Made by a program: the position numbers and the translations under genes. Source: a virus. Taken from it: a DNA stretch of 32,382 bases. The stretch lies in IMG/VR virus record IMGVR_UViG_3300026882_000104, one strand, 5' to 3'. Under the pieces are notes generated by a model. It ran no database searches. It was given only the letters and a program-made list of their open reading frames with translations, and was not told the origin of the DNA. Shown piece after piece: positions 17,556 through 26,125 of the stretch. How positions within the stretch are numbered: position 1 is the first letter of the stretch; every line of letters begins with the position of its first letter.

Positions 17556-17627
17556 TGGCACGTTTAGCCTACCCCTTGTGGGGTAGTTGCCCGCCCCACA
17601 CCACGAGGAGGTAGTGCCATGTGGGGC
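17556..17627 (-). ncRNA. HDV-like ribozyme fold 2 (canonical)
   Basis: P1 GCCCCAC/GTGGGGC, P2 TGGCAC/GTGCCA, P3 ACC/GGT, L3 TCCTCGT, P1.1 CC/GG, GCAA, P4 CTACCCC/GGGGTAG, J4/2 GCTAA. G1 immediately follows a U6 tract. Confidence 0.9.
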
Positions 17628-21706: not shown

Positions 21707-21920
21707 TTTCGACACCACCGTTTATGATAACCTCAGCTATCATTCTTCGCATCTGTGTTACCTTATCCTTTGGTATACCCGCTTGCTCAGCCGCGTTTAG
21801 TATAGTAAGTATAAGTCGGGTTAGTATAGCCAGGTCCTGGGAAGGGCTAAGTTCGTCATCTGTCAATATCTGGAATATAAGTGCATACGTTCTGTTTACT
21901 GGGCTAAAAAGTTCGCTCAT
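21699..21920 (-). CDS. Small helical hypothetical protein
   Basis: ATG 21920 after GGTGAG. The track's longer N-terminus overlaps another gene. Confidence 0.6.
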   Translation of the reverse strand: MSELFSPVNRTYALIFQILTDDELSPSQDLAILTRLILTILNAAEQAGIPKDKVTQMRRMIAEVIINGGVENE

Positions 21921-21921
21921 G

Positions 21922-22203
21922 CTACTCACCCGCCGGCGCGGGGCAAACTGCCCCGCGTGAAAAACCAGCAACCACCATGTTTGCGCTCTCGTAACCCCAA
22001 GGGGTTTTGATATAAAGTTTGTCGCCAACCTGCGGTTTCCTGTGCCCCCGCAAATAATACGTTGCGAAGAATGGGGGGCCTTCGCGGATAATTTGCATAT
22101 TAACCAAGGTTTTATAGAAAAACACCTTGGTCTGGGGCACGCTCTGGGGTTGTGACCCCGTAGCCCCACCGGTGTCGCTATTTGGAGTTTTGTTTTTCTC
22201 CAA
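21922..22203 (-). CDS. Hypothetical protein with N-terminal SDTGGAT motif
   Basis: TTG 22203 after GGTGA SD, directly after ribozyme fold 3. Confidence 0.6.
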   Translation of the reverse strand: MEKNKTPNSDTGGATGSQPQSVPQTKVFFYKTLVNMQIIREGPPFFATYYLRGHRKPQVGDKLYIKTPWGYESANMVVAGFSRGAVCPAPAGE

Positions 22204-22217
22204 GGTTTCTTCACCCG

Positions 22218-22292
22218 TAGACGCGCTTAGCCTGCCTCGAAAGAGGCAGTTGCCCGCCCCACACCTCTTGGAGGTGGCGCCTGTTGTGGGGC
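22218..22292 (-). ncRNA. HDV-like ribozyme fold 3
   Basis: P1 GCCCCAC/GTGGGGC, P2 AGGCGC/GCGTCT, P3 ACC/GGT, L3 TCCAAGA, GG, GCAA, P4 CTGCCTC/GAGGCAG, J4/2 GCTAA. Follows a U tract. Confidence 0.88.
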
Positions 22293-22324
22293 AAGAAAAA
22301 AAGGTAGAGTGTTTGGCTGTGTTT

Positions 22325-22693
22325 TTACTCGTCGCTTTCAAAGAACTCGCTTAAAATTTTGGTTAAACTATTCATCGCCTTCCTGCGTTTCAAAAGCTGT
22401 GAGAATGGGTTGGGTGGCCCACCCCAACGCCTCTCTGCTTCCCTGATTAGTTCCTCTGCTTCACATCCCACGTTGGTTATCAACGTCTTTATGCCCCATG
22501 CGTATTCACCGCTACCATCGTCGAAAGTTGCAATAACGACCTTAGCTGTTTTTGACCGCGCTAGATAGACGTAAATATCGCCCCCACCCCGACAAGGGTA
22601 TGAAAAAGCGGGGTCGAGTTGGGACACACTGAGGGCTTTTTTGCCCGAAGTCCCACCGATGTTGCTATGGGTTTGGGTTTTGGGGTTTGACAT
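22325..22693 (-). CDS. Hypothetical protein, paralog family A copy 2
   Basis: GGTGA SD. FSY..RGGGDIYVY...TFDDGSGEY...NPF. Confidence 0.7.
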   Translation of the reverse strand: MSNPKTQTHSNIGGTSGKKALSVSQLDPAFSYPCRGGGDIYVYLARSKTAKVVIATFDDGSGEYAWGIKTLITNVGCEAEELIREAERRWGGPPNPFSQLLKRRKAMNSLTKILSEFFESDE

Positions 22694-22707
22694 AGGTTTC
22701 TCACCCA

Positions 22708-22782
22708 GTTGGCGCTGTTAGCCTGTGCCAAAGGCACAGTTGCCCACCCCACGCCTAGAGGAGGCCGCGCCAATTGTGGGGT
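22708..22782 (-). ncRNA. HDV-like ribozyme fold 4, abutting the 3' end of a tRNA-like RNA
   Basis: P1 ACCCCAC/GTGGGGT, P2 TTGGCGC/GCGCCAA, P3 GCC/GGC, L3 TCCTCTA, GG, GCAA, P4 CTGTGCC/GGCACAG, J4/2 GCTAA. Confidence 0.88.
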
Positions 22783-22989
22783 GCGCCCACGCGGGGATTC
22801 GAACCCCGCAGGCACCTACCACTCATAAGAGTGGCCCACACTTACTGGACACACGCACATCCACCCATACACACACCGCTTGGGACTCGGACGGTGTGTG
22901 CTGGTGTGGAGACGTGTGTTACGCAAGCGTGGTAAGGTGCTCTCCCGATGCCCTAGGGTATCAGTCCCTTTCCCTTCGGGCGTGGGCAC
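22783..22989 (-). ncRNA. tRNA-like structured RNA (T-arm plus acceptor-like stem, large branched insert); not a canonical tRNA
   Basis: T-arm CGGGG-TTCGAAT-CCCCG followed by CGTGGGC-G, which pairs with GCCCACG at 22987-22981. Internal helices GCACCT/AGGTGC, CCACGCTTGC/GTAAGTGTGG and GCACACACCG/CGGTGTGTGT. Confidence 0.6.
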
Positions 22990-22991
22990 TT

Positions 22992-23404
22992 GAGCCAGAC
23001 CAGACCCCCTCCACCACGAGAAGGTTCCGACCCTGGAGGGGAAAAAAGATTTAGAGTTTGTTGATAATGTTTTCGAGTCTATTCATAGCTGATACATCGT
23101 TGAGCAACTCGTCAAAGGGATTCTTTGAACTAGGCACTGTACGACTATACGTATCCCGCGCTTTCTCGACGAGCTCACGAAAAGCGACGGGATAATCACC
23201 AGTTGTAACAGCCCACGTATACTCGACAAGCTCATCCGTTACTAGCGTTATTAGTAACGCGGTTGTATATTTTGTTTTGGCTGCATAGATGTTTATTTCG
23301 TCTCCTTCCTGAGTAGTGAAGGAGAAAACTGGACGAAGCTTGGGTATGCTAAAGTTTTTCGTGGACATATTTCTCACCTATGGTCGGATTCGCTAGTCTG
23401 GCTC
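22992..23404 (-). ncRNA. Split/circularly permuted HDV-like fold whose halves flank ORF 23051-23377
   Basis: Upstream half 23404-23382: GAGCCAGAC-TA-GCGAA-TCCGACC. Downstream half 23041-22992: CCCCTCC-AG-GGTCGGA-ACC-TTCTCGT-GGT-GGAGGGG-GTCTG-GTCTGGCTC. P2 (7 bp) and P4 (9 bp) between halves are perfectly complementary. Confidence 0.65.
23051..23368 (-). CDS. Hypothetical protein, paralog family A copy 3
   Basis: ATG 23368 after GGTGA (track starts at GTG 23377). FSFTT.EGDEINIY...VEY...NPF. Confidence 0.7.
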   Translation of the reverse strand: MSTKNFSIPKLRPVFSFTTQEGDEINIYAAKTKYTTALLITLVTDELVEYTWAVTTGDYPVAFRELVEKARDTYSRTVPSSKNPFDELLNDVSAMNRLENIINKL

Positions 23405-23605
23405 TATCCCGGCTTGGGTAGAAAAAGCTGATGTGGGGGTCACCTCTTCCTTCTGGAAAGAGTCAACCCCCACTTCCCAGGTCGAAGCCCGTATTTACGG
23501 GCTTCACGTAGGACTTCGCGCAGTTCTCTATCCATTCTCAACACCAGCTTGGGTTTTACCCAAGCCTTCGGGGAGCCATTGACGGAGCTTTTCCACGCCC
23601 CCAGT

Positions 23606-23666
23606 CAGCCGACTCCAAAAAAAAGGGTGGAGTTTCGCCCCCCGGCACAGGGGCTCATCAGGGCTG
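23606..23666 (-). ncRNA. Type I hammerhead ribozyme
   Basis: Stem I CAGCC/GGCTG, core CTGATGA, stem II GCCCC/GGGGC, GAAA, stem III CTCC/GGAG, cleavage triplet GTC (predicted cut after 23611). Confidence 0.85.
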
Positions 23667-24089
23667 TTACGCTAGACTATTGACGTAGTCGAGAACTTGA
23701 CGCAACTCATTTTCAGAAAGGGTCTTAAGTCTCTCCAGGATTTGCTTGACCAATGGATTGGTAACATTACGAACTGCCGGATTGACGTGAGAATGATAGA
23801 AGTGGCTGGCTACTGAAGCGAAGTTTCTACCATCGGTGCTCCACTTACAAATGGAGCACACGTAAAGAGTTACAGTAATGCCGTAGTCTTTGATGGTCAC
23901 TTTTTGAACTGTGAACGCTTTGTTTTTGATGTCATCACTAATATGCGTGCCGTAAAAGTGTCTTACTACGACTTCTTTGTAATTGTTGATGTAGCTGCAT
24001 GCCGAACACTTATACGTGTAGTTTGGTGCCTCGCCCTGCATCTCTACCCATATTTTGGGCAGAGACGTTAATTCAGGTATTTCGGACAT
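23667..24089 (-). CDS. Protein with two C2H2-like zinc fingers
   Basis: CSAC..HFYGTH and CSIC..HFYHSH. ATG 24089 after GGTGA. Confidence 0.75.
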   Translation of the reverse strand: MSEIPELTSLPKIWVEMQGEAPNYTYKCSACSYINNYKEVVVRHFYGTHISDDIKNKAFTVQKVTIKDYGITVTLYVCSICKWSTDGRNFASVASHFYHSHVNPAVRNVTNPLVKQILERLKTLSENELRQVLDYVNSLA

Positions 24090-24102
24090 GTTTTTTTCAC
24101 CT

Positions 24103-24205
24103 GGCCGCTGGGGGCTCTGTGGAGCCCCGTTAGTGCTAGTTAGAGCTCTTCTAATTGGCTCTTCCTTCCGCCCCCCGCCACGTGGAGGCGACCACCATGG
24201 GGGGC
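24103..24205 (-). ncRNA. HDV-like ribozyme fold 5 (variant with extra hairpin before P2 3' strand)
   Basis: P1 GCCCCCC/GGGGGGC, P3 GCC/GGC, L3 TCCACGT, GG, imperfect P4, CTAA, inserted hairpin GGGGCTC/GAGCCCC, weak P2 TGGT/GCCA. Confidence 0.6.
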
Positions 24206-24229
24206 TAGAAAAAAAGGTTAGAATTGGGG

Positions 24230-24553
24230 CTACTGAAGGGTTACTATATACCACTTCGCAGGCACTTGCATCATTTCTTGTTCGGTAAGTACCTTACCTT
24301 CCTCGAGACGTTTAAGAAGTTGGTACACAAGCAGTGTATCTCCTCGTTTCAATGATATGCTAACCCTGTTAACTGGAACATTGACCCCTAGCTGTGTTGT
24401 TATAATTTTAGCCGTTGCCTCGTGACCAATAGCGCTAACGAAACCTTGATTGAGGATGTTTTTAACATCCTCGACGCTAGCCTCGACCACCTTAATAGTG
24501 GTCGGGGGCGTTAGCATTGATAAGGAAAAGGCGTTAGAGATGTAGACTGTCAT
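24230..24553 (-). CDS. DUF1874 / STIV B116 / AFV3-109 family archaeal viral protein
   Basis: YISNAFSLSML, FVSAIGHEATA..LGV.VPVNR..I.L..GD..LVYQL..RLEEG.VL, the characteristic family signature. Confidence 0.9.
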   Translation of the reverse strand: MTVYISNAFSLSMLTPPTTIKVVEASVEDVKNILNQGFVSAIGHEATAKIITTQLGVNVPVNRVSISLKRGDTLLVYQLLKRLEEGKVLTEQEMMQVPAKWYIVTLQ

Positions 24554-24919
24554 TTAGTCTTCACCCTCCGTCAAAAGATTGCCTAGCCACCTTTTCAGCA
24601 TCTCGAATGCGTCGTTGGCCGCAACTGGGGTATGAACCCCACTTGCGGCCTCACTTGCAGAAAAGAATAGCGCTTCCCAGATGTTTGACTCGATAGCTTT
24701 ATCACTGAAACCGCGAACTAACGCTGTTTTAAGGAGCTGACTAACGCTGGCGTGGTCGTAATCGAGGGGTAGACCGAATTGGTCTTCCCCCGGGTGCCAA
24801 CACATGGCGCCACAGGGGAATGGCTGACCACTACTATGGCATGGACAGTCGCATGTTTGGGGCGCGCTATAAGTAGCCCCACCGATGTCTTTACTCGAAA
24901 GGTTTTTATTACTTGACAT
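24554..24919 (-). CDS. Hypothetical protein with N-terminal KDIGGAT motif and a Cys/His cluster
   Basis: ATG 24919 after GGTGAG. CDCPCH..CGAMCWH. Confidence 0.6.
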   Translation of the reverse strand: MSSNKNLSSKDIGGATYSAPQTCDCPCHSSGQPFPCGAMCWHPGEDQFGLPLDYDHASVSQLLKTALVRGFSDKAIESNIWEALFFSASEAASGVHTPVAANDAFEMLKRWLGNLLTEGED

Positions 24920-25000
24920 TTTTCTCACCAAAAGCGGTGGTGCTTGGTGAAGAGCCAAAAGAAGAGCTCTTCGCTAAGCATCGTGATTAGCGTTTTTTTG

Positions 25001-25424: not shown

Positions 25425-25580
25425 ATGGTTCGTGTAAGTGTGGTTCTTCCCGACGAACTCGATGAAAGGTTCAGAAAGGAAATCATAAGAAGGAAAGGAT
25501 ATAAGAAGGGGTATTACTCGGAGAGTGTGAAGGAGGCGATTGAACTTTGGCTCAACCATGGGTTAAGCCAAAAACAGTAG
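25425..25580 (+). CDS. Ribbon-helix-helix (CopG-like) regulator, 51 aa (missed by the ORF track)
   Basis: Manual translation MVRVSVVLPDELDERFRKEIIRRKGYKKGYYSESVKEAIELWLNHGLSQKQ. Confidence 0.8.
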   Translation: MVRVSVVLPDELDERFRKEIIRRKGYKKGYYSESVKEAIELWLNHGLSQKQ

Positions 25581-26125
25581 AGAACATCCTGACTGAGAGG
25601 GATGTAGTGAGACTGCTGAAGGCGTGCAGGAATAAGAGGGAAGCCTTCGTTGTAGGGGGTCTCGTATTCACCGGGATGAGGGTTTCAGAGTTCATCCACA
25701 TGGATAGGTCGTGGATAAGAGATGGGGCGATTCACATACCGAGGTCCAAGAAGTGTTCGTGTTCAGAATGTGCCAAAAAAGGGGGTATTTGGACACCCAA
25801 GACCCCTAGCAGTATAAGGGTTATTCCCATAGTCCCCGAGATAGAAAGTCTGTTTTCCGAGTTCTTCTCTGAATACAATTCAGTGATGGAACTCATCCCG
25901 AATAGGCAGAAAGCCCACTACATCATAAGGGATGTTGGAAAAAGGATAAACAAGAAGGTCTTTCCCCACTCACTCAGAGGAACCTTTGCTACAATACTTG
26001 CCAAAAAAGGTTTTAATCCCTTTGAGATAAAGGATGTTATGGGCTGGAGCAAGATAGATGTTGCCATGTCGTATATCAACATGGTGGGTGCGTATGTTAA
26101 GGAGGCGTTCAGGCAGAAATGGTAG
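25547..26125 (+). CDS. Tyrosine recombinase/integrase (catalytic domain only)
   Basis: FTGMRVSE (R), TPKT (K), FPHSLRGTFAT (HxxR), MGWS and MSYI (Y). Confidence 0.92.
   Translation: MAQPWVKPKTVENILTERDVVRLLKACRNKREAFVVGGLVFTGMRVSEFIHMDRSWIRDGAIHIPRSKKCSCSECAKKGGIWTPKTPSSIRVIPIVPEIESLFSEFFSEYNSVMELIPNRQKAHYIIRDVGKRINKKVFPHSLRGTFATILAKKGFNPFEIKDVMGWSKIDVAMSYINMVGAYVKEAFRQKW

What the first reader, a model, noticed from the sequence alone, without database searches (positions are those of the whole stretch)
22992..23404. Split, circularly permuted HDV-like fold that encloses an entire ORF
Seen: the 3' half of an HDV fold (P4 strand GAGCCAGAC, J4/2 GCGAA as in genomic HDV, P2 strand TCCGACC) lies just before the SD of ORF 23051-23368. 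The 5' half (P1-P2-P3-L3-P1'-P4') lies just after that ORF's U-tract. P2 (7/7) and P4 (9/9, extendable to 12 with a GU pair) are complementary across about 340 nt. Known: HDV ribozymes work as engineered two-piece or permuted constructs. Inference: a natural permuted ribozyme in which the ORF is the loop, so cleavage at 23041/23042 could depend on read-through or ribosome occupancy. Caveats: position 1 is C and P1.1 has one pair, so activity may be low.
Basis: partly seen in the sequence, partly recalled or inferred. Interest (0 to 1): 0.85.

Follow-up and report, generated by a model that had tools for sequence, protein, structure and literature searches.

The report
Split HDV-like ribozyme around gene cassette
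In a hot-spring archaeal virus, the two halves of an HDV-type self-cutting RNA sit on either side of a small, swappable gene, and public RNA data hint that it still cuts, which would make it the first natural two-part ribozyme of this class.

Summary
On the minus strand, 23041-22992 is a genuine HDV-like 5' half (P1, P2 strand, P3, L3, P1', P4 strand). It belongs to the same family as four contiguous HDV-like ribozymes in this window. Its only partner for P2 (7/7), P4 (12 bp) and the catalytic CGAA is at 23404-23382, upstream of ORF 23368-23051. A descriptor scan found this split hit once and never in 100 shuffles.

Fifteen distinct haplotypes from 44 homologous hot-spring metagenome loci keep both halves about 99% identical. 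Four-fold degenerate ORF sites are only 75% identical. The enclosed loop varies from one to three ORFs (340-909 nt). No compensatory covariation exists: P2 is almost invariant and the P4 5' strand carries single uncompensated changes.

One metatranscriptome contig joins the end of the downstream tRNA-like RNA (about 22782) back to the start of the 5' half (about 23041/23040). That is what cleavage by both ribozymes followed by ligation into a roughly 266-nt circle would give.

A 12-nt direct repeat (CGGGAWAGAGCC) beside both halves suggests the split arose by recombination in the P4 loop.

Best reading (about 0.55): a natural discontinuous, permuted HDV-like ribozyme. Gating by translation or read-through is untested.

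The parts
23405..23411 (-). CGGGATA. Left copy of the direct repeat r (CGGGAWAGAGCC, together with the first 5 nt of P4'). Presumed former P4 loop.
   Evidence: Most homologues have a second copy, CGGGAAAGAGCC, right after the 5' half. In the window that copy carries an 8-nt deletion.
23393..23404 (-). P4 3' strand, GAGCCAGACTAG
   Evidence: Pairs with 23003-22992. Pair probability is 0.8-1.0 at 37-85 C in the 428- and 828-nt contexts. Invariant in 15 haplotypes apart from the window's own T.
23389..23392 (-). J4/2 CGAA. C23392 is the candidate catalytic cytosine (C75 equivalent); A23390 and A23389 are the A77/A78 equivalents.
   Evidence: Shown directly by the sequence. Invariant in all haplotypes. 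Same letters as the genomic HDV and CPEB3 J4/2 (my own knowledge).
23382..23388 (-). P2 3' strand, TCCGACC
   Evidence: 7/7 Watson-Crick with 23032-23026. Variants in homologues: TCCGACT (G.U), TCCCGAC(C/T) (one bulged C), and one extra T before it.
23373..23378 (-). Shine-Dalgarno GGTGAG, 3 nt after P2'
   Evidence: The same GGTGA motif precedes the other minus-strand ORFs.
23051..23368 (-). ORF (105 aa, no known family) that forms the 'loop' between the two halves
   Evidence: In homologues this position holds 1, 2 or 3 ORFs (340-909 nt between the halves).
23042..23047 (-). T6 tract (archaeal-type terminator signal) directly before the predicted cleavage site
   Evidence: The cores at 24205, 22292 and 17627 also follow T-rich tracts.
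23035..23041 (-). P1 5' strand CCCCTCC. Predicted cut 23042|23041 (7-bp P1) or 23041|23040 (6-bp P1).
   Evidence: The RNA contig back-joint ends here within the C-run ambiguity. L015 has TCCCTCC.
23026..23032 (-). P2 5' strand, GGTCGGA
23013..23025 (-). P3 (ACC/GGT) with 7-nt L3 TTCTCGT (TCCTCGT in some homologues)
   Evidence: The core at 17627 has the same ACC-TCCTCGT-GGT. The L3 pattern matches genomic HDV UCCUCGC (my own knowledge).
23005..23012 (-). P1 3' strand GGAGGGG, plus G23005 (P1.1 with C23020)
22992..23003 (-). P4 5' strand, CTGGTCTGGCTC
   Evidence: This is the most variable part. Homologues carry GACTC (A.C mismatch), GGTTC (G.U), TGCTC (mismatch) or one extra T (bulge), none compensated.
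22783..22989 (-). tRNA-like RNA that follows the 5' half. In the RNA contig it is joined back to the start of the 5' half.
   Evidence: ARAGORN partial call; back-joint 23032->22779
22708..22782 (-). Contiguous HDV-like ribozyme A, which would cut the 3' end of the tRNA-like RNA
   Evidence: Rfam RF02682 at 34.6 bits (E 7e-4) and RF00094 at 34.9 bits; descriptor hit

Best explanation
This is a natural discontinuous, circularly permuted HDV-like self-cleaving ribozyme, opened in the P4 loop.

Shown:
- The 5' UTR of a variable gene cassette carries the small catalytic strand: P4 3' strand, C23392-G-A-A, P2 3' strand.
- The region just after the cassette's T6 tract carries the substrate-containing strand: P1, P2 5' strand, P3/L3, P1', P4 5' strand.
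- Both strands are conserved, and the long-range helices are thermodynamically favoured.

Inferred mechanism: when RNA polymerase reads through the T-tract, the new 5' half folds P1 and P3 locally. It then docks on the upstream strand through the 12-bp P4 and 7-bp P2, which completes the double pseudoknot. C23392 then promotes cleavage 5' of C23041 (or C23040).

Products: this separates the cassette mRNA (2',3'-cyclic phosphate end) from a downstream RNA that starts with the ribozyme's 5' half followed by a tRNA-like RNA (5'-OH end). Contiguous ribozyme A cuts at about 22783|22782. An archaeal RtcB-type ligase could then close the piece into a circle of about 260 nt. One RNA-library contig indicates this.

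Purely inferred: P2' lies 3-5 nt from the SD, so an initiating ribosome would compete with ribozyme assembly. The split most likely arose by recombination within the P4 loop of a once contiguous ribozyme.
For: 1. All core HDV elements are present when the halves are combined. The split hit is unique in the window and absent from 100 shuffles.
2. The 5' half is clearly homologous to the contiguous ribozymes of the same window. Cores lie at 24205, 22782, 22292 and 17627. The elements at 22782 and 22292 hit Rfam RF02682 at E 7e-4 and 5e-5. Yet the 5' half has no local J4/2 plus P2'.
3. In 12 representative haplotypes the 3' half is 99.2% and the 5' core 99.1% identical. Four-fold degenerate sites of the enclosed ORF are 75% identical.
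4. The halves persist around six different loop lengths and contents, from 340 to 909 nt.
5. Long-range P4 has pair probability 0.8-1.0 at 37-85 C in the 428-nt and 828-nt contexts. The MFE z-score is -4.2.
6. Contig X19 from an RNA library joins about 22779-22782 back to the start of the 5' half (CCC(C)TCCAAAGG...), with 42 nt on the short side. The joint is within 1 nt of the predicted cut sites of ribozyme A and of the split ribozyme. The joined sequence is absent from 44 DNA loci.
7. An engineered HDV ribozyme interrupted in the P4 loop, with the pieces held by P2 and P4, is active (PMC8495972).
Against: - There is no compensatory covariation. P2 is nearly invariant.
- The P4 5' strand shows four different single changes (A.C mismatch, U-C mismatch, G.U, 1-nt bulge) opposite an invariant 3' strand.
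- One lineage has an extra C in P2' that is not compensated.
- Position +1 is C, while a review lists G1 as invariant (PMC8495972).
- P1.1 is 1 bp in the 7-bp register.
- The J1/4 GCAAC shared by three of the four contiguous copies (22782, 22292, 17627) is missing.
- Rfam gives no hit for either half.
- The RNA evidence is one assembled contig from a close relative, laid at 85% likeness. RNA libraries can contain DNA, so a tandem DNA repeat is not excluded.
- Conserved flanks around divergent ORFs could also reflect recombination at module borders rather than RNA function.
Confidence: 0.55

Rival explanations
1. Recombination scar without catalysis. A once contiguous ribozyme upstream of a gene was split when modules were exchanged at a site in its P4 loop. 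One possible route is integration of a circular 5'half-L4-3'half-ORF cassette, leaving attL/attR-like halves. Under this reading the halves are kept for other reasons: the 5' UTR/SD context, the leader of the tRNA-like RNA, and homology arms for cassette exchange.
For: - A 12-nt direct repeat CGGGAWAGAGCC lies just 5' of the 3' half and just 3' of the 5' half in most homologues.
- The cassette content between the halves is hypervariable.
- A tyrosine recombinase gene lies nearby at 25547-26125.
- An RNA-library contig carries the rejoined form 5'half-ACGGGATA-3'half (joint 23411->22999).
- P4 5' strand changes are uncompensated.
Against: - The catalytic-core letters of a useless 5' half (L3, P3, P1, P1') would not be expected to stay 99% identical when synonymous sites are 75% identical.
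- The back-joint at the predicted cut site needs a cleavage there.
- This origin story is compatible with the split ribozyme still working.
Confidence: 0.2
2. Non-catalytic 5'-3' UTR panhandle. Under this reading the long-range P4/P2 helix, plus pairing of the SD region with the U-tract and the C-run, closes the cassette mRNA on itself. That would control translation or protect its ends, and no cutting would be involved.
For: The MFE at 37 C contains P4, P2 and AGG.GAGAAA paired with UUUUUC.CCU, which sequesters the SD. Long-range P4 is very stable.
Against: - It does not explain why the interior of the asymmetric loop reproduces P1/P3/L3, or why CGAA sits opposite it.
- It does not explain the family resemblance to four contiguous ribozymes.
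- It does not explain the RNA joint at the cut site.
- SD:U-tract complementarity is low-complexity and may be fortuitous.
Confidence: 0.1
3. The 5' end at about 23041 is made by something other than the upstream 3' half. Candidates are a protein endonuclease, a weak local fold using the downstream GAGCC...TCCGA of the long-form relatives, or a 3' half supplied in trans by another transcript.
For: Long-form homologues can form a local 5-bp P4 hairpin (GGCTC-ACGGGAAA-GAGCC) followed by CACG-TCCGA. Trans action cannot be told from cis action with these data.
Against: - The local alternative lacks the C-N-R-A junction.
- It overlaps the acceptor-like stem.
- Its P2' letters vary (TCCGA, CCCGA, CTCGA).
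- It is destroyed in the window and other short-form haplotypes, whose 5' core is equally conserved.
- No bulge-helix-bulge motif can be drawn around the two ends (sequence inspection).
Confidence: 0.1

Closest known systems
Engineered two-piece HDV ribozyme interrupted in the P4 loop (reviewed in PMC8495972)
   Same: Identical topology. A large piece carries the cleavage site, P1, P3, L3 and the 5' strands of P2 and P4. A small piece carries the P4 3' strand, the catalytic C and the P2 3' strand. The two are held together by P2 and P4.
   Different: The known constructs are laboratory-made, and the two pieces are separate molecules. Here both pieces lie on one natural transcript in permuted order (small piece first). 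They are 340-909 nt apart, with translated ORFs between them.
Discontinuous hammerhead ribozyme in mammalian Clec2 3' UTRs (Martick et al. 2008, as described in PMC6765202)
   Same: It is a natural self-cleaving ribozyme whose two parts are separated by hundreds of nucleotides of the same mRNA. It cuts near the end of a coding unit.
   Different: It belongs to a different ribozyme class. Both of its parts lie in the 3' UTR and do not enclose an ORF. It is eukaryotic.
Contiguous HDV-like ribozymes: Rfam RF00094 HDV_ribozyme and RF02682 HDV-F-prausnitzii
   Same: Same core: P1, P1.1, P2, P3 with a 7-nt L3 of U-Y-C type, and J4/2 C-N-A-A. Sister copies in the same window hit these models.
   Different: There is no Rfam hit for this element. 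The strand order is permuted, +1 is C, the GCAAC J1/4 is missing, and P1.1 is weak.
Theta ribozymes: HDV-like ribozymes next to phage tRNAs (PMC10879173)
   Same: An HDV-like ribozyme abuts a tRNA-type RNA in a virus. Here that applies to ribozyme A, and to the 5' half that precedes the tRNA-like RNA.
   Different: Theta ribozymes are contiguous minimal forms in gut bacteriophages. Here the host is an archaeon of acidic hot springs, and the element is split.
Naturally permuted hammerhead (types I-III) and twister (P1/P3/P5) ribozymes (PMC6765202)
   Same: In both classes, nature uses circular permutations of a self-cleaving fold.
   Different: In those classes the open helix merely changes, and the motif remains compact. 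I found no report of a natural permutation for the HDV fold.

Membership tests
HDV-like self-cleaving ribozymes | P1 helix of at least 6 bp that begins at the cleavage site | tested here: met
   CCCCTCC/GGAGGGG is 7 bp, or 6 bp in the alternative register. It is conserved in 15 haplotypes.
HDV-like self-cleaving ribozymes | G at position +1 (G1.U37 or G1-C37) | tested here: not met
   Position +1 is C in either register. The review PMC8495972 lists G1 as invariant. Sister ribozyme A also lacks G1 (A or C).
HDV-like self-cleaving ribozymes | 3-bp P3 closed by a 7-nt L3 of the U-Y-C...G type | tested here: met
   ACC-TTCTCGT-GGT in the window and TCCTCGT in relatives
HDV-like self-cleaving ribozymes | P1.1: two pairs between L3 and the two nucleotides after P1' | tested here: inconclusive
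   In the 7-bp P1 register only G23005-C23020 pairs. In the 6-bp register GG pairs with UC (window) or CC (L009 group).
HDV-like self-cleaving ribozymes | Catalytic C in J4/2, followed by N-A-A and then the P2 3' strand | tested here: met
   C23392-G-A-A followed directly by TCCGACC. CGAA itself is unchanged in every haplotype; one pair of haplotypes (L018/L032) carries one extra T between CGAA and TCCGACC.
HDV-like self-cleaving ribozymes | P2 and P4 helices that complete the nested double pseudoknot | tested here: met
   P2 is 7/7 and P4 is 12 bp, both long-range. P4 pair probability is at least 0.8 up to 85 C. No covariation is available.
HDV-like self-cleaving ribozymes | Contiguous motif recognised by the Rfam covariance models | tested here: not met
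   No hit at 22992-23041 or 23382-23404 even at E<=10, while sister copies score 35-40 bits. This is expected if the motif is split.
HDV-like self-cleaving ribozymes | Demonstrated self-scission giving 5'-OH and 2',3'-cyclic phosphate ends | not testable with these tools
   The only evidence is indirect: an RNA-library contig whose back-joint lies within 1 nt of the predicted site.
Archaeal bulge-helix-bulge (splicing endonuclease) processing site | Two 3-nt bulges separated by a 4-bp helix around the two cut sites | tested here: not met
   The internal loop between P2 and P4 is 4 nt against 22 nt with the 12-bp P4 (7 nt against 25 nt with the 9-bp P4). No such motif can be drawn at 23041 / 22782 or at 23411 / 22991.

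The most novel reading that the evidence does not exclude
The split ribozyme is a working gate at the border of a mobile gene-cassette slot. It would cut only on transcripts that read through the cassette's T-tract and whose 5' UTR is free of initiating ribosomes. The released product, half ribozyme plus tRNA-like RNA, would be ligated into a stable circular RNA. The former P4 loop (CGGGAWAGAGCC) would double as the DNA recombination site through which cassettes enter and leave. The same sequence would then serve RNA catalysis and gene shuffling in an archaeal virus.
Probability: 0.2. Interest if true: 0.92.

Novelty: new variant of a known kind. Interest (0 to 1): 0.78.

Why it matters
The literature I could search reports no natural discontinuous or permuted HDV-like ribozyme, and none in an archaeal virus. 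Reviews mention the search for genomic trans-cleaving HDV-like RNAs as open.

If this element cleaves, three things follow:
- The HDV fold can assemble across hundreds of translated nucleotides at high temperature.
- It gives a natural case in which mRNA 5' UTR accessibility could be coupled to 3' processing.
- Ribozyme searches that demand contiguous motifs miss a class of real elements.

It also links ribozyme processing to circular RNA formation and to cassette exchange in crenarchaeal viruses.

Tried and rejected
- **Covariation.** 44 homologous loci gave 15 haplotypes but no double changes. The virus group is too close-knit: ORF105 and ORF140 homologues are all at least 68% identical.
- **Other collections.** INPHARED phages had no match. 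No whole genome is held for this window. Genome contigs had no match to the 5' half.
- **IMG/VR.** The protein scan found no relative of the ORF, and IMG/VR holds no copy of the 5' half at all. The absence of the two junction sequences there therefore says nothing.
- **RNAduplex matrix.** I compared every unit's upstream flank with every downstream flank. It was uninformative, because the G-rich P1' and C-rich P1 strands of all the ribozymes cross-pair.
- **A local, canonical-order 3' half downstream of 22992.** Rejected. TCCGA at about 22888 lies in a hairpin loop. The GAGCC...CACG-TCCGA of long-form relatives lacks C-N-R-A and is missing in the window.
- **T-loop CGAATCC as J4/2-P2'.** Rejected: only 3 bp with P2.
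- **A 5' half upstream, in the 200-nt RNA.** The descriptor scan found none.
- **Bulge-helix-bulge processing.** Rejected (see the membership test).
- **A second split example around 24205.** Its GAAGAGC repeats match the hairpin at 24980-24941, but that hairpin folds locally and the 24205 ribozyme can close contiguously.
- **RNA contig cover.** The apparent lack of cover over the ORF in run X17, and contig stops near 23042 in X21 and 23034 in X19, were not used as evidence. Contig depth was not used to rank RNA abundance.
- **The theta-ribozyme paper.** A term look-up for position +1 rules returned nothing.

Full report
**Setting.** The window comes from a hot-spring archaeal virus or mobile element. 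Evidence for this:
- A STIV_B116-like gene lies at 24230-24553.
- GGTGA Shine-Dalgarno motifs precede the ORFs, and oligo-T tracts follow them.
- All homologues come from hot-spring or microbial-mat metagenomes.

Between 25000 and 21900 the genes lie on the minus strand, separated by GC-rich spacers. A relaxed Rfam search scores two spacers as HDV-like ribozymes. One is 22708-22782 (RF02682, 34.6 bits, E 7e-4; RF00094, 34.9 bits). The other is 22219-22292 (RF02682, 39.7 bits, E 5e-5). There is also a weak hit at 24148-24205 and weak hammerhead hits at 23606-23726. Nothing reaches gathering score.

**The observation.**
- After the stop codon (23053-23051) and a T6 tract (23047-23042) come CCCCTCC (P1), A, GGGTCGGA (P2 strand), ACC-TTCTCGT-GGT (P3 and L3), GGAGGGG (P1'), G, T, and CTGGTCTGGCTC (P4 strand, ending at 22992).
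- Upstream of the ORF, 3 nt before its SD, lie GAGCCAGACTAG (23404-23393), CGAA (23392-23389) and TCCGACC (23388-23382).
- A script confirmed 7/7 Watson-Crick pairs for P2, and 9/9 plus U.G, A-U and G-C for P4.

I wrote a descriptor for HDV-like 5' cores: P1 of 6-7 bp, a 3-bp P3, L3 of the form T-Y-C-N4, P1', then G.
- It found five cores on the minus strand, at 24205, 23041, 22782, 22292 and 17627. Dinucleotide shuffles of the window gave 0.11 cores each.
- The cores at 24205, 22292 and 17627 follow a T-rich tract; so does the one at 23041. The core at 22782 follows the tRNA-like RNA.
- When I also required an upstream P4'(>=8)-CNRA-P2'(>=6) partner within 1.5 kb, only the 23041 core qualified (P2 7, P4 12). 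None did in 100 shuffles.

**The 5' half is a family member without a local partner.** Its P3 and L3 (ACC-TYCTCGT-GGT) match the contiguous ribozyme at 17627. The contiguous copies continue with GG-GCAAC, a P4 hairpin, GGCTAA and P2'. The 23041 element runs instead straight into the acceptor-like stem of a tRNA-like RNA (22989-22783; ARAGORN partial call).

I looked for a downstream J4/2 plus P2' and found none that is conserved.
- In "long-form" relatives a 5-bp hairpin GGCTC-ACGGGAAA-GAGCC followed by CACG-TCCGA could be drawn.
- That alternative lacks the C-N-R-A junction, its letters vary, and it overlaps the acceptor stem.
- It is deleted in the window and other "short-form" haplotypes, whose 5' core is just as conserved.

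**Homologues.** The ORF protein has 26 relatives at 70-100% identity. I fetched 44 loci.
- Wherever the contig reaches far enough, both halves are present. They form 15 distinct haplotypes.
- The distance between the halves falls into six classes (340-343, 574-578, 630, 683-697, 714 and 909 nt). The slot holds one, two or three ORFs, not always of the same family.
- In 12 representative haplotypes with equal-length ORFs, four-fold degenerate sites are 75% identical and third codon positions 76%.
- Over the same set, the 3' half is 99.2% identical and the 5' core 99.1%.
- In a looser alignment the neighbouring 200-nt RNA is 86% identical, the SD spacer 82% and the tRNA-like RNA 93%.

Both halves are therefore under constraint, or are homogenised by recombination, far beyond the neutral level.

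Two loci (L033, L034) carry the ORF in another genomic context without either half.

**No covariation.**
- P2 is invariant apart from TCCGACT (giving G.U), an inserted C (TCCCGAC) in one lineage, an inserted T before P2', and AGTCGGA in one truncated contig.
- The P4 3' strand is invariant apart from the window's own T.
- The P4 5' strand carries four different single changes, none compensated: GACTC (A.C mismatch), TGCTC (mismatch), GGTTC (G.U) and an extra T (bulge).
- Each haplotype still keeps at least 11 of 12 pairs.

This neither supports nor refutes the helices. The asymmetry between the two P4 strands is a point against strong selection on P4 pairing.

**Thermodynamics.**
- The 428-nt RNA 23412-22985 folds with the long-range P4 and P2 in its MFE (-135.9 kcal/mol; z = -4.2 against 100 shuffles).
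- P4 pair probabilities are 0.8-1.0 at 37, 60, 75 and 85 C. The same holds in the 828-nt RNA between the hammerhead site and the ribozyme A site.
- P2 and P1 alternate in the predictions. That is expected, because they form a pseudoknot that a nested model cannot hold.
- At 37 C the MFE also pairs the SD region with the U-tract and the C-run. This would be exclusive with P1.

**RNA evidence.** I laid four metatranscriptome runs, kept as contigs, on 21900-25000.

The first joint, in run X19:
- A 275-nt contig covers 22991-22779 with 7 differences. It then continues with TCCAAA and 42 nt of 23032-22991, followed by CGGGAAAGAGCC. The tool reports this as a joint that "goes back 254".
- In RNA sense this reads ...CGTGGGCGC(A)CCC-TCCAAAGGTCGGA.... 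The end of the tRNA-like RNA is joined to the first letters of the 5' half of a long-form relative, and the contig then runs into the tRNA-like RNA again.
- Because both sides carry a C-run, the junction can be read two ways. GCGC|CCCCTCC corresponds to canonical cuts 22783|22782 and 23042|23041, with the A read as a mismatch. GCGCA|CCCTCC corresponds to 6-bp P1 registers for both ribozymes.
- Either way it falls within 1 nt of two independently predicted cleavage sites. This is what ribozyme cleavage (5'-OH and 2',3'-cyclic phosphate) followed by RtcB-type ligation would produce: a circle of about 260-270 nt.
- The joined sequence is absent from all 44 DNA loci.

Caveats on that joint: it is one contig, from a relative, laid at 85% likeness. 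RNA libraries can contain DNA. A tandem DNA duplication with the same borders would look identical.

A second X19 contig joins the 5' half through ACGGGATA directly to the 3' half (joint 23411->22999; 31 nt on the short side). That is a contiguous, canonical-order ribozyme.

A low-depth X18 contig joins about 22782 to GAGCCCACG (22987).

**Origin.** In most homologues the 12-mer CGGGAWAGAGCC lies both immediately 5' of the 3' half and immediately 3' of the 5' half. The window has lost 8 nt of the right-hand copy.
- The repeat equals a P4 loop plus the first five letters of the P4 3' strand.
- The simplest history is that a contiguous ribozyme (5' half, ACGGGAWA, 3' half) upstream of a gene was permuted by recombination at this site. 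One possible route is integration of a circular cassette.
- The second X19 contig may be the rejoined form as DNA, as RNA, or as a reverse-transcriptase jump at the repeat.
- A tyrosine recombinase gene lies at 25547-26125.
- This history does not decide whether the split element works.

**Comparison with what is known.**
- The review PMC8495972 describes exactly this bipartite design as an active laboratory construct. The HDV ribozyme is interrupted in the P4 loop, a small strand carries the catalytic C, and the pieces are held by P2 and P4.
- The same review says P1 must be at least 6 bp and that G1 is invariant. Here +1 is C, so one defining feature is not met.
- A natural discontinuous ribozyme is known for the hammerhead (Clec2 3' UTR). 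That discovery motivated a search for trans-cleaving HDV-like RNAs (PMC6765202).
- Full-text searches found no natural split or permuted HDV-like ribozyme, and none in archaeal viruses.

**Verdict.**
- The architecture, the conservation and one RNA junction favour a working discontinuous HDV-like ribozyme. My confidence is about 0.55.
- Rivals are a non-catalytic recombination scar (0.2), a plain UTR panhandle (0.1), or another source for the cut (0.1).
- Control by read-through or ribosome occupancy is plausible, since P2' lies 3-5 nt from the SD, but it is untested.
- I rate it as a new variant of a known kind.

Noticed in passing
window 22708-22782, 22219-22292, about 24103-24205, about 17556-17627 (minus strand): Contiguous HDV-like ribozymes sit between a T-tract (or the tRNA-like RNA) and the next SD. 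Two hit Rfam RF02682 below gathering score (E 7e-4 and 5e-5). Four were found by my 5'-core descriptor.
   Followed up: partly
window 23606-23672 (minus strand); L015:855-925: A type I hammerhead-like motif starts right after the stop of ORF 24089-23667, with the U-tract in loop III. Rfam gives only weak hits (about 20 bits). In L015 stem III is CCC...GGG instead of CTCCA...TGGAG, and the core reads CTGACGAG, which is compatible with the fold.
   Followed up: partly
window 23405-23416; homologues e.g. L009:1450-1462 and L009:1884-1896: The direct repeat CGGGAWAGAGCC flanks the unit 3' half-ORF(s)-5' half. The right-hand copy is cut down by 8 nt in the window, L014, L018, L021 and L025. It looks like a recombination site in a former P4 loop.
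   Followed up: partly
window 22991 / 23411 (RNA-library contig of run X19): A contig joins the 5' half through ACGGGATA directly to the 3' half, giving a contiguous canonical ribozyme. It could be a relative's genome arrangement, an excised circle, or a reverse-transcriptase jump at the 12-nt repeat. This is unresolved.
   Followed up: no
window 22782 / 22987 (RNA-library contig of run X18): A low-depth back-joint links the 3' end of the tRNA-like RNA to GAGCCCACG, 2-3 nt before its acceptor-like stem. This may be a circular form of the tRNA-like RNA alone.
   Followed up: no
L039:3545-3945 and L040 (same place): In these relatives the tRNA-like RNA is interrupted by an insertion of about 390 nt, between GTGTCCA and GTAAGTGTGGGCC. 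It looks like an intron or a mobile insert.
   Followed up: no
L033:400-530 and L034:1110-1240: A 70%-identical homologue of the ORF sits in another genome context without the split halves. It is followed by another HDV-like core (GCC-TTCACGC-GGC ... GGCAAC) before the next SD.
   Followed up: no
window 24941-24980 and 24160-24195 (minus strand): The 5' UTR hairpin TGCTTAGCGAAGAGC...GCTCTTCACCAAGCA shares GAAGAGC(C/T) repeats with the insertion after P1.1 of the 24205 ribozyme. This gives 8- and 9-nt long-range complementarity across two ORFs. It may be a shared protein-binding motif rather than a second split ribozyme.
   Followed up: partly
window 22647-22667, 22160-22180, 24873-24893 (minus strand): Several small proteins share an N-terminal S-[DN]-[IT]-G-G-[AT]-[TS] motif with nearly identical DNA (repeat finder families D3 and D5).
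   Followed up: no
window 23051-23368 and 22325-22693: The enclosed 105-aa ORF and the 122-aa ORF after ribozyme A are paralogues (33% identity, shared NPF..LL..AM motif). Neither matches a known family.
   Followed up: partly
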